Shown here piece by piece: positions 5,776 through 10,361 of a stretch of DNA of 64,000 nt. The notes beneath the pieces were generated by a model. That model had not been told where the DNA came from and did no database searches. It saw only the letters and a program-made list of their open reading frames with translations. Positions within the stretch are counted from its first letter, which is position 1, and each line of letters opens with the position of its first letter. Both the position numbers and the translations under genes were made by a program. The DNA comes from Escherichia phage p000y. The DNA is taken from sequence record MK047718.1; one strand, written 5' to 3'.

Positions 5776-6327
5776 TTACTTAAAGATATTTATAATCGCT
5801 TTGATAATAGATTTGTTTTCAAGGTCAGGGAATTTAGGGAATTCGCCGCCAAGATGTTCATGTTTTTCTAAAAGGGCAAAGAATTTTTTGAGCTCTTTAA
5901 ATTTTCGTTTTTCTTCTCTATTAGCAACCTCTGCGTCAATAAGAGAACTTAAAACACTGAATAATTTATAGAGTTCATGAATTTTCTTATCACGTTGAAC
6001 TACGCGTTTATATGCTTCATCTTCCTTCCACCCGTCGTCGGTCCAAATGTCAAATTCACCAGGTTCTTCCGTAGTAACATTTTGAAGAGCACCCGGAGTG
6101 TCAATAACAATTTTTTGCTTATCATAAGTCCATACTGTTTTTCCACGATGGTCTTCAACATATACCCATTCTTGTTCGTGTTCATCAAATAAAACAGCAT
6201 AGCCTTCTTTAGGGTCTAAAGGTTTTTTTGGTGTTGAATGAGCCGGAAATCCTACACCTTTTAATGGTTTATAATTTTCTTCTTTGTAAAATTCTTTAGT
6301 GTCAAAATAATAATGATAGAGTTTCAT
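5776..6327 (-). CDS. 38: gp38, T4-type tail fibre assembly chaperone
   Basis: 183 aa; MKLYHYYFDTKEFYKEENYKP... matches T4-type (short) gp38. Confidence 0.85.
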   Translation of the reverse strand: MKLYHYYFDTKEFYKEENYKPLKGVGFPAHSTPKKPLDPKEGYAVLFDEHEQEWVYVEDHRGKTVWTYDKQKIVIDTPGALQNVTTEEPGEFDIWTDDGWKEDEAYKRVVQRDKKIHELYKLFSVLSSLIDAEVANREEKRKFKELKKFFALLEKHEHLGGEFPKFPDLENKSIIKAIINIFK

Positions 6328-6360
6328 ATTATAAAAAGGGACCGAAGTCCCTTCTCCTTA
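6328..6360 (-). promoter_or_regulatory. Split ribosome-binding site of gene 38: SD AAGGAG separated from AUG by hairpin GGGACTTCGGTCCC
   Basis: On minus strand: AAGGAG-AA-[GGGACTTCGGTCCC]-TTTTTATAAT-ATG; the SD overlaps the gene 37 stop codon. Confidence 0.5.
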
Positions 6361-9300
6361 TGCTAAACGAACGATATAGTTAAAAGCAACGTTTTTAACT
6401 GTGTTTTCTGTATTTCCTGTGGCATTTACAGTTATTGTATGTCCATGGGAACCAATCGCTACCGAATGAGAGTGGGCACCAATACCTACAGTATGTGTAT
6501 GGGCACCAATACCTACAGTATGCGCGTGGTTACCTGTGGTACTTGTGGTTCCTGACCAAGAGTGTGTATGGTTACCTTCTGAAGAAGTTTTGGCCATATT
6601 CGACGATGCGGTAGCACCACTCACGGTTGCAGTGAATTTAGCGTTACCGTTTGGACCCGCACTATTGTATCCATCATAGAATACGCTAGTGGGTATGCCG
6701 CCTTGTACCTGAGGACCTGAGCGCGCATGTTGGTGGTTACCTGCAGCACTTGTAGTTCCACTCACCGTATGGTTATGGTTACCTGTGGTATTACTGGTCT
6801 TAGTACCATAATCAAAGCTTGAAGTCGTTTTGCTACCGTAATCAAAACTAGAAGTGGTCTTAGTACCCAAATCTGTGCTTGATGCACTTGCACTATGGCT
6901 ATGTGACTTAACACCGTCTGCTTCTGTACTCAATACAGCACGCCCAGATGGTTTACCCTTGATAGTTTGACCACGCATATCAGGCAGAGTGCCGGAAGGA
7001 TACACCGCAGCTAACTTAGGATACAAGTCAGCATCAAATGTTTGACCTTCCATTATGGCATAACCTTCAGGAGGTGTATCAGTAGGCCAAGGAATCGGAG
7101 CACCGATTGGGTAACTCGAGACAATATCCGTCTTAAGGTTATTTATTGTTGTATTCAAGTTAGCAAAATTACCAGAACCACCAGTGATATTACCATCAGT
7201 ACCAATACGAACATTACCAGCGCCTAATTTACCAGGAGAATAAAAATCACCGTTTTTATTAAATTCCCATCCAAGATCCTTTATAACAGCACCAGTAGAA
7301 ACGCCGTCACCACCTTCGTGATAATGAACTCTAAAGTTACCACCATTAATTAAAGTACCAATAGAATAGCAACTATTATTTTGAACGTATCTTTGTTTCA
7401 CAATAGGAACATAAGTGCTTGTATCTGTTCTATCAATATTCATATAGAACGGAGCACGAACGTTTTCATTATTTTGTGAAGCAAAAGAACCGGCTCCAGC
7501 AGGTCGTGCAGTATCAGTACATTCAGCGTCGATATATGCCGATTGTCCTAATTGCATACGGTAATTAGGAGAAATACGACTATTACTAGTGATAACAACA
7601 AGTTTATTATCATTATCGACCGTTACCATATTACCGCCAGCACCATCATCGCCTAATGTAACGGAATGGCGCATTTGTACCATACCGTTGTTAAGAGAAA
7701 CACTCAATGGGCGAAGGTTAGAAATACCACCACTTTCACCTGCATCTTTAAGTGTAGGTATAATATGCAAAGACGCTTCAGAACGACGGAAAATAGCTCC
7801 ATATTCAGCATTGTAAATACGGAAAGCATCTGCGGTATTACCGATTTTAACTTGACCGGTAATAGAACCACCGCCGGATAAAACAAGCCCGTTATCCATA
7901 GTAACTTGTCCGGATAATGTACTTAATCCATTAACTCTAAGACTTCCATCGGTGATAATGCTCCCTCTTGCATTCAGTTGTCCATTAATTTGTGTTACAA
8001 CAGGTCCCACAGTTTCTGAACCGGTTGGAGCTACGCGCTGAGAATAAAAATAATATCCCTGCCCGTCAGCTACTTCAAAAACTGTTTCACGAGTACGATC
8101 GCCGGATGCGTTAAATGAATTACCCCATGCTTTAACAGTTACGTAGCTTTTATTCTGCCCAGCACGAGTACCACCTTCCCACAAAATTTGCTTAGTGCCA
8201 TCAACTGTAGTAGTTGGAGCGAATGTTAGCCCAGCAGTAGAATTATTAGCTGCTAAATATACACCATTATATATTGAAAGCTGCTTAGTGGATGTAATAC
8301 CGCCATCAGCATAAAACATCACATTATTTGCACCGGTTACCAATTTCAAAATACCCGGGTTAATTTCCATACCTTGTTGGGTATTGATATTCATCTGACC
8401 TGTACCACGGAAATAATGGGAAAATTTACCGCCAGAATTATATCCGATGTGGGTTTGACCATCACCTGCATTGTTTGTATCAGCCTGGGTTTGAACCGAT
8501 AAAAGCGCGGCGTTGGTTCCAGGCATTGTCCAGGTTCCGCCTTGGTCTTCTGAGCGTCCAAATAATGCTTTACGAGTACTACGGAAACTATCAGGAGTAA
8601 TAGAAGCAACAGAATTCCAATTACCTACTAAATCATAAACGCCTTGCTTAATATATTTTAAACCAGTTGCAGCATCGCCCAAAGCAATATATCTTTCTCC
8701 CATTGGAGTAGGAGAGCCGTAGTTGTTAGTATTTTCGTCAGCAGTAATTGTGCCAATAGCAAGTGAACGACGTAATACCATTGCTCCATCATTACGAAGA
8801 CCCATTAATTTAGTAGTAAGTGTATTTCCGGTCCACCAAGAAATTTCATCATTCTTACCAGTTTGAGCTGAAGCGATTTCATGGTAAATGGTTCCACCTG
8901 ATTTAGCTCGAACTTTACGAAGATAGTTTATACCATTTTCTTCACCTGTTCCAGGATAAACATATTGAACTAATGACTGCGAATCGTATTGTCCAAATGC
9001 TTTTGTGTCTAAAACAATGGTTTTCGTATTAACTTGTGGAGCAGAAACTATACCATTAGCGGAGTTAATATTGCCTGACGCAGAAATATTACCTTTGCTG
9101 ACAAATAAATCACCAGTGTCAACTTGGAAATTACCATTACGATTAAAAGTCCAATATTTCGAATCCCCAGTTTCATCAATATAATGGAACTTAAAACTGC
9201 CTTCAGCAACCAATGTACCCGCTGAAAACGTACCATCTTTATAACGTTGCTTAATGAGTGGATGATATTCTGAAATAGAAGTAGTTGAACTTAAATCTGT

Positions 9301-9633
9301 AAAGATAGGAGCTTTATTTAGGTGTTGATTTGCCCACGCGCCATTACCAGCTGTTTTAGGTAAAAATTCAATATATTTTCCTGCATAAACAAACTGATTT
9401 CCATTGAGATTATATGTGCCGTTTTGTAAATAATCACCATTTTGAGTTACATTACCGTTAATATCCCCGCCCTTAGCAAAACCTAGGCTAATAATATTAC
9501 CGAGGTCATCTTTAGTAAAAAGAGTTCGATCTTTTAAGTTTATCGCTAATTCGCCTTCGGCTAATTGTGCTGCAGTAGGATTAACTCCTGCCACTTTGCT
9601 TCTTTTAAATTGTATCTGTTTTAATGTAGCCAT
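6358..9633 (-). CDS. 37: gp37, long tail fibre distal subunit (receptor-binding tip with His boxes)
   Basis: 1091 aa; C-terminal HxH repeats ([38 protein letters not shown]...) typical of T4 gp37 tip. Confidence 0.9.
6438..6527. repeat. Tandem 27-nt repeats (three copies, first degenerate) encoding HxHxVxIGx units in the gp37 tip
   Basis: GGGCACCAATACCTACAGTATGTGTAT followed by GGGCACCAATACCTACAGTATGCGCGT, preceded by a diverged copy. Confidence 0.7.
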
Positions 9634-10337: not shown

Positions 10338-10361
10338 AAAAATGGGAGACCGAAGTCTCCC
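10338..10361 (-). terminator. Terminator hairpin GGGAGACTTCGGTCTCCC + T-run after gene 35
   Basis: Perfect 7-bp GC stem with TTCG loop followed by T-run on minus strand. Confidence 0.6.

What the first reader, a model, noticed from the sequence alone, without database searches (positions are those of the whole stretch)
6358..6900. Receptor-binding tip of gp37 built from tandemly repeated His-box units
The C-terminal about 180 aa of gp37 carries at least seven HxH motifs. At the DNA level these include near-identical tandem 27-nt units (6474-6500 and 6501-6527, plus a diverged copy upstream) and a 30-nt duplication encoding TTSSFDYG(S/T)K (about 6797-6860). Recent tandem duplication in the adhesin tip suggests ongoing repeat expansion or contraction as a host-range variation mechanism. 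The short 183-aa gp38 indicates a T4-type architecture in which gp37 itself, not gp38, is the adhesin.
Basis: partly seen in the sequence, partly recalled or inferred. Interest (0 to 1): 0.4.

Follow-up and report, generated by a model that had tools for sequence, protein, structure and literature searches.

The report
Known T4-type tail-fibre tip repeats
The repeats are real, but they are old, conserved structural rungs in the shaft of a well-known T4-type phage tail-fibre tip (the TuIb/TuIa variant with eight iron-binding His-x-His motifs instead of T4's seven), so this is an ordinary, already described feature rather than a recently expanding host-range switch.

Summary
Window 6358-9633 (minus strand) encodes gp37, identical to the long tail fibre protein of Escherichia phage p000y. 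Its last 206 aa align to the T4 gp37 tip crystal structure 2XGF (E=2e-89).

The reported DNA repeats exist:
- 27-nt units at 6502-6528 and 6475-6501 (24/27 identical), with more diverged units at 6448-6474 and 6421-6447.
- 30-nt units at 6823-6852 and 6793-6822 (22/30), with a third at 6853-6882.
- There are eight HxH motifs.

Compared with T4, the tip has exactly two stem insertions. One is a 10-aa SSFDYGxKTT unit on the outgoing strand. The other is a 9-aa HxHxVGIGA unit on the returning strand. Together they add one extra rung.

In 243 unique homologous tips these two unit counts are almost always equal (1 to 5). The number of 14-aa His-box steps also matches on both strands. There are two structural exceptions.

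The layout is not recent. TuIa and TuIb (sequenced 1990) share it, and 58 of the 60 best phage hits match with no net length change. Differences from the closest relative concentrate in the head between the repeats (12.4% vs 0-2.3%).

gp38 is a T4-type chaperone (66% identical to T4 gp38), so gp37 is the adhesin. The receptor is probably OmpC.

The parts
6358..9633 (-). gene 37, long tail fibre distal subunit (1091 aa plus stop codon)
   Evidence: ORF. PHROG 1699 'long tail fiber protein distal subunit', E=8e-287. 61% identical to T4 gp37. Exact match to AYN56621.1 of Escherichia phage p000y.
6961..7104 (-). collar (knob) domain, gp37 aa 844-891
   Evidence: Pfam PF07484 Collar, E=3e-11, 43.4 bits against a cut-off of 24. 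Aligns to the T4 collar in 2XGF.
6895..6903 (-). His box 1 (HSH, aa 911-913), top of the outgoing strand of the stem
   Evidence: Aligns to T4 H883/H885.
6793..6882 (-). three 10-aa spacer units on the outgoing strand: d1 [10 protein letters not shown] (6853-6882), d2 [10 protein letters not shown] (6823-6852), d3 [10 protein letters not shown] (6793-6822). T4 has two.
   Evidence: the repeat finder family D1. 10-aa insertion relative to T4 and 2XGF. Unit DNA listed.
6727..6783 (-). outgoing-strand 14-aa His-box step: [14 protein letters not shown] followed by GNHQH (His boxes 2 and 3)
   Evidence: Aligns to T4 H915/917 and H929/931. Pfam PF03335 Phage_fiber repeat matches the tip.
6574..6726 (-). 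head (tip) domain, aa 970-1020: the hypervariable, presumed receptor-binding apex
   Evidence: Corresponds to the T4 tip subdomain 932-959, with insertions (PMC6957217). 19 of the 25 mismatches with WFbE185 fall here. Over the 55 aa matched (His box 3 plus most of the head), 72.7% identical to TuIb and 74.5% to the OmpC-dependent FelixPlatter.
6529..6573 (-). returning-strand 14-aa His-box step: (G)[15 protein letters not shown] (His box 4)
   Evidence: Aligns to T4 H966/968 and following residues.
6421..6528 (-). four 9-aa His-box units on the returning strand: a1 HAHTVGIGA (6502-6528), a2 HTHTVGIGA (6475-6501), a3 HSHSVAIGS (6448-6474), a4 HGHTITVNA (6421-6447). T4 has three.
   Evidence: Tandem Repeats Finder period 27. 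9-aa insertion relative to T4 and 2XGF. Unit DNA listed.
6361..6420 (-). C-terminal strand returning into the collar ([20 protein letters not shown])
   Evidence: Nearly identical to T4 1007-1026. Largely invariant or nearly invariant in the alignment.
5776..6327 (-). gene 38, T4-type tail fibre assembly chaperone (183 aa)
   Evidence: 66% identical to T4 gp38 over 179 aa. Pfam Caudo_TAP. PHROG 105 'tail fiber assembly'.
6336..6353 (-). GC-rich hairpin (GGGAC-UUCG-GUCCC) followed by a run of T, between genes 37 and 38
   Evidence: Read directly from the sequence. The same position is annotated as a putative terminator in phage WFbE185. The simple terminator scan did not list it.

Best explanation
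The region encodes the collar-stem-head receptor-binding module of a T4-type gp37, in the TuIa/TuIb layout.

How the module is built. Each chain of the trimer leaves the collar, runs down the stem, forms the small head and runs back up. The stem is therefore a six-stranded antiparallel bundle. Its core is stapled by metal ions, each held by three HxH motifs.

What the DNA repeats are. They encode the stem's rungs:
- 9-aa HxHxVxIGx units on the returning strand. Each lies beside a 10-aa [S/T][S/T]xDxGxKxx spacer unit on the outgoing strand.
- 14-aa GxHxHxxSGxxxxx units present in equal number on both strands.

What is different here. This phage has one more 10-aa/9-aa pair than T4. That gives eight predicted metal sites instead of seven and a stem longer by one rung.

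Where receptor specificity lies. It lies in the ~51-aa head between the repeat blocks, and the receptor is probably OmpC. The conserved repeats act as scaffold and, secondarily, as homologous flanks across which heads are exchanged. gp38 is the folding chaperone, not the adhesin.

What is shown and what is inferred:
- Shown: homology to 2XGF, the exact positions of the insertions, the matched-count rule, the age and conservation of the layout, and the clustering of variation in the head.
- Inferred: the eighth metal site, the longer stem, the OmpC receptor and head exchange across the repeats.
For: - Homology and insertions. The tip aligns to 2XGF_A (E=1.9e-89) with just two stem gaps: +10 aa after T4 residue ~902 and +9 aa after residue 992. 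There are further insertions in the head.
- Register of the two strands. My numbering reproduces H929 and F970 as named in PMC6957217. The contacts reported there, G921-F970 and G964-H929, give an antiparallel register of i+j about 1891-1893. That register places the T4 returning His boxes 998/1000 and 989/991 opposite spacer units d1 and d2.
- Matched-count rule. In 243 unique complete tips, the first HxH-to-HxH gap equals 12+10n (within one residue), where n is the number of 9-aa steps (n = 1 to 5), in all but L005 by length; P0229 and P0306, whose first gap runs into the head, still carry two spacer units for two 9-aa steps. The numbers of 14-aa steps on the two strands match except in P0306, an internally deleted prophage copy, and P0342, where one His box reads HTY. 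L005 and P0306 are the only structural exceptions.
- Age. TuIa and TuIb have the identical layout. 58 of 60 best phage hits match with no net length change. Corresponding units are identical between the window and WFbE185, while units within a genome are diverged. In distant prophage fibres a1/a2 share only 18-20 of 27 nt.
- Where variation falls. The window and WFbE185 are 100% identical at the protein level in both stems but only 76% in the head. DNA mismatch is 12.4% in the head against 0-2.3% elsewhere. P0002 and TuIa keep the stems (90-95%) with heads only 39-49% identical.
- Chaperone. gp38 is 66% identical to T4 gp38 and matches Caudo_TAP.
- Receptor lead. FelixPlatter (Bas40) is 74.5% identical over the 55 aa matched in and next to the head and depends on OmpC. 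[quoted passage not shown]
- Repeat family. Pfam PF03335 Phage_fiber repeat scores above its cut-off, with 6 matched stretches.
Against: - There is no structure of this protein. A monomer AlphaFold2 model was useless (mean pLDDT 43), so the extra rung and the eighth metal site rest on alignment alone.
- The a1/a2 pair is slightly more alike at synonymous sites than protein conservation predicts (fraction 0.035). The window's a1 also differs from the WFbE185 a1 at four sites, two of which now match a2. Some local gene conversion or recombination inside the repeats is therefore likely.
- The sequences supporting the matched-count rule are related to one another. The number of independent changes is small: at least 4 for the 9/10-aa pairs and at least 2 for the 14-aa pairs.
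- The OmpC assignment rests on about 73-75% identity over 55 aa. TuIa, with a different head in the same scaffold, is listed as using OmpF.
Confidence: 0.85

Rival explanations
1. The near-identical units are recent tandem duplications, and ongoing expansion and contraction of unit number is itself a mechanism for varying host range.
For: - a1/a2 share 24/27 nt, modestly above the codon-shuffle expectation (fraction 0.035).
- Unit number ranges from 1 to 5 across the family.
- One metagenomic contig (L005, with a head identical to TuIa's) lacks one 27-nt unit relative to TuIa.
- From my own knowledge, not read here: Tetart et al. 1996 selected T4 host-range mutants carrying duplications bounded by His boxes in gene 37. 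Only the citation was seen.
Against: - The same layout occurs in TuIa and TuIb and in 58 of 60 best phage hits without net length change.
- Corresponding units are identical between relatives, while units within a genome are diverged. The d2/d3 similarity is fully explained by the protein sequence (fraction 0.36).
- The units map to the collar-proximal stem, not to the head.
- Variation between close relatives is concentrated in the head.
- Unmatched unit counts are almost absent (2 of 243 tips). This argues that a change on one strand alone is selected against.
- No second copy of the L005 form was found.
Confidence: 0.08
2. The main evolutionary role of the conserved repeats is as short homologous 'His-box' flanks that let whole head domains be swapped by recombination between phages and prophages. 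Their structural role as rungs is a given. This complements the best explanation rather than competing with it.
For: - The window and WFbE185 have identical stem proteins but a head only 76% identical. 19 of 25 mismatches lie in the head and 4 in unit a1 at the edge of the repeat block.
- P0002 and TuIa share the stems with different heads.
- The same head types appear with both 7- and 8-motif stems, for example P0012 against the window and P0019 against P0003.
- The same tip occurs on T-even, lambdoid and other prophage fibres (PMC9659904).
- Tetart et al. 1998 is cited in PMC3157838 for shuffling mediated by conserved motifs.
Against: - Strong diversifying selection on the head with purifying selection on the stems could give the same pattern without recombination.
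- No breakpoints were mapped statistically.
Confidence: 0.5
3. The extra HxH rung matters for its metal rather than for its length. In this view, fibre-bound iron serves as bait or cargo (the 'Trojan horse' idea for phage tail iron), and more HxH motifs mean more iron.
For: Only the general idea as described in PMC11705849, plus the count of eight HxH motifs.
Against: - In the T4 structure, as described in PMC12609058 and PMC6957217, the motifs coordinate iron along the inside of the needle and are needed for folding.
- The tight matching with a histidine-free spacer unit on the other strand points to geometry, not to metal load.
Confidence: 0.02

Closest known systems
Phage TuIb gp37 (GenBank X55191, Montag et al. 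1990), and TuIa gp37 (X55190)
   Same: - Identical spacing of the eight HxH motifs (42,14,55,14,9,9,9).
- Three 10-aa spacer units, four 9-aa His units, and the same total tip length of 206 aa.
- TuIb: stems 90-93% identical and a head of the same type, 73% identical.
- A 183-aa gene 38 lies next to gene 37 in the TuIb record.
   Different: - The head sequence differs: 73% identity to TuIb and 49% to TuIa.
- The rest of the genome here is Mosigvirus-like: 97.8% to WFbE185 over a 6-kb test stretch.
Phage T4 gp37 receptor-binding tip (PDB 2XGF; Bartual et al. 2010)
   Same: - Collar, His-box stem, head and return to the collar.
- E=1.9e-89 to the solved chain.
- gp38 chaperone 66% identical.
- All seven T4 HxH motifs have counterparts here.
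   Different: - One additional 10-aa spacer unit and one additional 9-aa His unit, giving eight HxH motifs against seven.
- The head is about 18 aa longer and unrelated in sequence.
The 'T4- and lambda-based receptor-binding protein family' (PMC9659904), including lambda side tail fibre tips and many prophage fibres
   Same: - The same C-terminal module of about 200 aa with an adjacent gp38/Tfa-like assembly protein.
- The paper names O157 typing phage 3 and Yersinia phage phiD1 as members. Both are direct DNA hits of this region.
   Different: - Members differ in the number of rungs (4 to 9 HxH motifs in my sample), in head sequence and in the fibre shaft they are attached to.
T2/T6-type tips (gp38 adhesin capping a cleaved gp37)
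   Same: Same position in the genome and same overall task, host recognition at the end of the long tail fibre.
   Different: In that type gp38 is an adhesin of about 260 aa and the gp37 C-terminus is cleaved (PMC3157838). Here gp38 is the 183-aa T4-type chaperone, and gp37 keeps the complete His-box tip.

Membership tests
T4-type gp37 receptor-binding tip (2XGF-like collar-needle-head) | Significant sequence homology to the solved T4 gp37(785-1026) chain over its whole length | tested here: met
   phmmer E=1.9e-89; query 36-313 aligned to chain 2-242.
T4-type gp37 receptor-binding tip (2XGF-like collar-needle-head) | Collar domain immediately before the needle | tested here: met
   Pfam PF07484 Collar, 43.4 bits against a cut-off of 24.
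T4-type gp37 receptor-binding tip (2XGF-like collar-needle-head) | HxH motifs on both the outgoing and returning stem segments, aligned with the T4 iron ligands | tested here: met
   All seven T4 motifs have aligned counterparts, and there is one extra.
T4-type gp37 receptor-binding tip (2XGF-like collar-needle-head) | Trimeric six-stranded needle with bound iron | not testable with these tools
   Only a monomer prediction was available, and it failed (pLDDT 43). Metal content needs experiment.
T4-type gp37 receptor-binding tip (2XGF-like collar-needle-head) | Adjacent T4-type gp38 / lambda Tfa-like assembly chaperone | tested here: met
   The 183-aa ORF is 66% identical to T4 gp38 and matches Caudo_TAP and PHROG 105.
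T4-type gp37 receptor-binding tip (2XGF-like collar-needle-head) | Requirement for the general fibre chaperone gp57A | not tested
   Gene 57A was not looked for in the window.
Pfam PF03335 Phage_fiber (phage tail fibre repeat) | Score above the curated cut-off with several repeat matches | tested here: met
   23.2 bits against a cut-off of 20, with 6 matched stretches in the 206-aa tip.
T2/T6-type gp38 adhesin system | gp38 of about 260 aa acting as a separate adhesin, unrelated to T4 gp38 | tested here: not met
   gp38 here is 183 aa and 66% identical to T4 gp38. The T4 record notes that the T2-subfamily 'gp38' is unrelated.
Hypermutable repeat locus (copy number varying among close isolates) | Copy-number polymorphism among closely related genomes | tested here: not met
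   58 of 60 best phage hits match with no net length change. The two exceptions are a run of N (L001) and a 15-nt difference in F31 (L002) that leaves the rung count unchanged.
Hypermutable repeat locus (copy number varying among close isolates) | Repeat units identical or nearly identical at synonymous sites, indicating recent origin or homogenisation | tested here: inconclusive
   a1/a2 are slightly above expectation (fraction 0.035), d2/d3 are at expectation (0.36) and d1/d3 are above it (0.002). Corresponding units between genomes are more alike than units within a genome.

The most novel reading that the evidence does not exclude
The stem of this family of fibre tips may evolve only by matched insertions or deletions on its two strands: a 10-aa spacer unit with a 9-aa His unit, or a 14-aa His step with a 14-aa His step. 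This would give needles with anywhere from 4 to 9 metal sites.

If so, rung number would be a discrete, evolvable length setting. It might be changed in one step, when a donor segment recombines out of register at both of its repeat-bounded ends. Its length might be tuned to how far the head must reach through the host surface layer.

The single unmatched natural sequence (L005: three spacer units, two 9-aa steps) could be either a living intermediate or an assembly collapse.

[quoted passage not shown] I could not read Bartual et al. 2010 or Tetart et al. 1996 and 1998.
Probability: 0.25. Interest if true: 0.4.

Novelty: already known. Interest (0 to 1): 0.18.

Why it matters
For this window it matters little. 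The gene is the annotated long tail fibre protein of phage p000y, and its tip layout has been in GenBank since 1990 (TuIb).

The practical message concerns engineering or predicting host range in T4-type phages that infect E. coli O157. The part to look at is the ~51-aa head between the repeat blocks, not the repeat number.

The matched-count rule gives a design constraint for changing needle length. A 10-aa unit on the outgoing strand and a 9-aa His unit on the returning strand should be added or removed together.

The repeats are also a known trouble spot for short-read assembly. One related record has a run of N inside this region, and one metagenomic contig lacks a unit. Apparent copy-number variants therefore need long-read confirmation.

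Tried and rejected
- AlphaFold2 monomer model of aa 836-1091 with a 24-sequence alignment: mean pLDDT 43, pTM 0.14. It was unusable, so no fold search was run. The tool does not model trimers.
- An apparent 117-nt 'expansion' in E. coli O157 typing phage 13 (hit H34) turned out to be a run of N in the record.
- The +15 nt in phage F31 (hit H45, locus L002) does not change the rung count.
- I looked for other copies of the unmatched L005 form. An exact-sequence look-up found nothing. A second homologue search had a best hit of only 80% identity. L005 remains a singleton.
- Counting spacer units with a sequence motif under-counted degenerate units such as TDLGAE and TELGTK. I replaced it with the length rule, first gap = 12+10n.
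- P0229 and P0342 looked like exceptions but are cases where one outgoing-strand His box has lost a histidine or is absent. P0306 is an internally deleted prophage copy.
- Bartual et al. 2010 could not be read by DOI or by PMC id. The Tetart papers were not held either: full-text searches for 'His boxes' found nothing. What I say about Tetart 1996 rests on the citations seen and on my own memory.
- The simple terminator scan did not list the hairpin between genes 37 and 38, although a related genome annotates one at that position.
Full report
**What is there.** The finding lies at the 3' end of a 1091-aa ORF on the minus strand (6358..9633). Downstream on the same strand lie a 183-aa ORF (5776..6327) and a 220-aa ORF. 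Upstream lie ORFs of 220, 375 and 1291 aa.
- Pfam and PHROGs identify the set as gp34-gp35-gp36-gp37-gp38-holin t of a T4-like phage.
- The gp37 protein is an exact match to the long tail fibre protein of Escherichia phage p000y, AYN56621.1. That phage was isolated from wastewater and infects E. coli O157:H7 (PMC6256609).
- Neighbouring DNA is 97.8% identical to phage vB_EcoM_WFbE185, which is classified in Mosigvirus.

**Check of the observation.** The repeats are real.
- Tandem Repeats Finder reports a 27-nt period, 2.9 copies, at 6445-6522. The repeat finder reports three copies spaced 30 nt apart at 6795-6882.
- In frame, the returning-strand units are a1 HAHTVGIGA (6502-6528), a2 HTHTVGIGA (6475-6501), a3 HSHSVAIGS (6448-6474) and a4 HGHTITVNA (6421-6447).
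- The outgoing-strand units are d1 [10 protein letters not shown] (6853-6882), d2 [10 protein letters not shown] (6823-6852) and d3 [10 protein letters not shown] (6793-6822).
- There are eight HxH motifs, at aa 911, 953, 967, 1022, 1036, 1045, 1054 and 1063.
- a1/a2 share 24/27 nt and d2/d3 share 22/30 nt. These are the highest adjacent-unit identities in the gene, where the median is 8-9.
- I shuffled synonymous codons 5000 times while keeping the protein. The expected identities are 20.8 and 20.7. The fraction of shuffles reaching the observed value is 0.035 for a1/a2 and 0.36 for d2/d3. Most of the DNA similarity therefore follows from the conserved protein sequence.

**What it is.** The last 278 aa align to the crystal-structure chain of the T4 gp37 tip (2XGF_A) with E=1.9e-89. 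The full protein is 61% identical to T4 gp37.
- Both alignments show the same differences from T4 within the stem. One is a 10-aa insertion that duplicates the SSFDYGxKTT unit. The other is a 9-aa insertion that duplicates the HxHxVGIGA unit. The head is also longer and unrelated in sequence.
- PMC6957217 gives the T4 domain limits: collar 811-881 and 1010-1026, stem 882-931 and 960-1009, tip 932-959.
- My residue numbering derived from the alignment reproduces H929 and F970 as named in that paper.
- The paper reports contacts G921-F970 and G964-H929. These give an antiparallel register of i+j about 1891-1893.
- In that register the T4 returning-strand His boxes 998/1000 and 989/991 lie opposite spacer units d1 (890-899) and d2 (900-909).
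- By inference, each 9-aa His unit pairs with one 10-aa spacer unit. The two insertions in this phage together form one additional rung in the collar-proximal half of the stem, far from the head.
- A monomer AlphaFold2 model gave no usable structure (pLDDT 43). This point therefore rests on alignment.

**Test of the pairing across relatives.** I collected tips from four sources:
- two searches of the 5.8-billion-protein collection;
- a search of 1.84 billion cluster representatives;
- 80 viral contigs;
- GenBank records for T4, TuIa and TuIb.

This gave 243 unique complete tips.
- The distance from the first to the second HxH equals 12+10n, within one residue, where n is the number of trailing 9-aa steps. 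n runs from 1 to 5.
- The number of 14-aa His steps is the same on both strands (0, 1 or 2).
- The resulting classes have 4 to 9 HxH motifs. T4 belongs to class 32,14 | 14,9,9 (seven motifs). The window belongs to class 42,14 | 14,9,9,9 (eight motifs).
- Two apparent exceptions, P0229 and P0342, are tips in which one outgoing-strand His box has lost a histidine or is absent.
- The real exceptions are P0306, an internally deleted prophage copy, and L005, a 10.5-kb metagenomic contig.
- L005 has a head identical to TuIa's and three spacer units but only two 9-aa steps. No second copy of that form was found.
- The sequences are related to one another, so the number of independent matched changes is small: at least four for the 9/10-aa pairs and at least two for the 14-aa pairs. 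The near-absence of unmatched forms is still clear.

**Is the duplication recent?** No.
- TuIa and TuIb gp37 (GenBank X55190 and X55191, from Montag et al. 1990) have exactly the same spacing, 42,14,55,14,9,9,9, and the same 206-aa tip length.
- Of the 60 best phage DNA hits (80-97% identity), 58 span the same length as the query. The two exceptions are a run of N in the record and a 15-nt difference that does not alter the rung count.
- Units a2, a3, a4 and d1-d3 are identical at the DNA level between the window and WFbE185. Units within one genome differ at several synonymous sites. In distant prophage fibres a1 and a2 share only 18-20 of 27 nt.
- There is a small sign of local exchange. The window's a1 differs from the WFbE185 a1 at four synonymous sites, and two of these now match a2.

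**Where the variation is.** The window and WFbE185 have identical proteins in the collar and in both stems, but the head is only 76% identical.
- At the DNA level, 19 of 25 mismatches fall in the 153-nt head (12.4%). The outgoing-strand stem has 0%, the collar 0.5%, and the returning-strand stem plus C-terminus 2.3%.
- Other tips keep the same stems (90-95%) with heads only 39-49% identical.
- The same head types also occur on both seven- and eight-motif stems.
- This fits exchange of heads across the conserved repeat flanks. PMC3157838 attributes such shuffling through conserved motifs to Tetart et al. 1998. I did not map breakpoints.

**gp38 and the receptor.**
- gp38 is 183 aa, 66% identical to T4 gp38, and matches the lambda Tfa-like assembly family.
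- The T4 record itself notes that the T2-subfamily 'gp38' adhesin is unrelated.
- Over the 55 aa matched, which cover His box 3 and most of the head, the window is 72.7% identical to TuIb and 74.5% to the BASEL phage FelixPlatter. FelixPlatter depends on OmpC (PMC8594841).
- OmpC is therefore my best guess for the receptor. It is an inference from moderate identity. TuIa, with another head on the same scaffold, is listed as using OmpF (PMC9659904).

**Comparison with what is known.**
- The module belongs to the T4/lambda tip family described structurally in 2010 (2XGF) and surveyed in PMC9659904. That survey names O157 typing phage 3 and phiD1 as members, and both are direct hits of this region.
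- The repeats match the curated Pfam Phage_fiber repeat, PF03335.
- From my own knowledge, laboratory duplications bounded by His boxes that expand T4 host range were reported by Tetart et al. 1996. I saw only the citation.
- I did not find the strand-pairing rule stated in the papers I could read. It follows naturally from the hairpin architecture, and I could not read the primary structural paper.

**Verdict.**
The T4-type His-box tip with gp37 as adhesin holds. The recent, ongoing expansion at the receptor-binding apex does not.
- The feature is an already known kind, and an already sequenced and annotated gene.
- Interest is low.
- The modestly new element is the quantitative pairing rule and the single unmatched contig.

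Noticed in passing
L005 (IMGVR_UViG_3300030021_000020), tip at locus 1501-2091: This is the only full-length natural tip with unmatched unit counts: three 10-aa spacer units but only two 9-aa His steps. Its head is identical to TuIa's, so it looks like TuIa minus one 27-nt unit. It is either a real contraction or an assembly collapse of the tandem repeat.
   Followed up: partly
L001 (KP869111.1, E. coli O157 typing phage 13), within the gp37 tip: The record has a run of N (40 unknown codons) exactly inside the His-box region, and no gene is annotated there. This suggests the repeats disturb short-read assembly.
   Followed up: yes
window 6793-6882: The non-adjacent units d1 and d3 share 24/30 nt. 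That is well above the synonymous-codon shuffle expectation of 17.7 (fraction 0.002). The adjacent pair d2/d3 is at expectation. This hints that d2 is the inserted unit, or that d1 and d3 exchanged sequence.
   Followed up: partly
window 6336-6353 and 10344-10361 (minus strand): Two GC-rich hairpins with UUCG loops, each followed by a run of T, lie after gene 37 and after gene 35 (GGGAC-UUCG-GUCCC and GGGAGAC-UUCG-GUCUCCC). They are likely transcript terminators or stabilisers within the fibre gene cluster. A related genome annotates terminators at both positions.
   Followed up: partly
window 9090-9460 (gp37 aa ~60-180): The N-terminal shaft of gp37 between about aa 60 and 180 shows almost no similarity to T4 gp37, while the flanks are conserved. 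The protein is also 53 aa longer than the gp37 of the otherwise closest genome, WFbE185 (1038 aa). The shaft is therefore mosaic as well.
   Followed up: no
database proteins P0056, P0061, P0063, P0070-P0075 (E. coli chromosomes): Several E. coli proteins of about 400-540 aa combine a terminase large-subunit domain (PF05876) with the collar and His-box tip. Others combine it with capsid, ParB or tape-measure annotations. They look like prophage remnants in which deletions fused an early morphogenesis gene to the end of the side tail fibre gene, or like gene-calling chimeras.
   Followed up: no
P0297, and L059 tip at locus 1501-2091: These are the extremes of the family. P0297 has nine HxH motifs (four 10/9-aa pairs plus one 14-aa pair). 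L059 has five 10/9-aa pairs. In the four- and five-unit forms the spacer units alternate TDLG and FDYG types, as if two-unit blocks were duplicated.
   Followed up: partly
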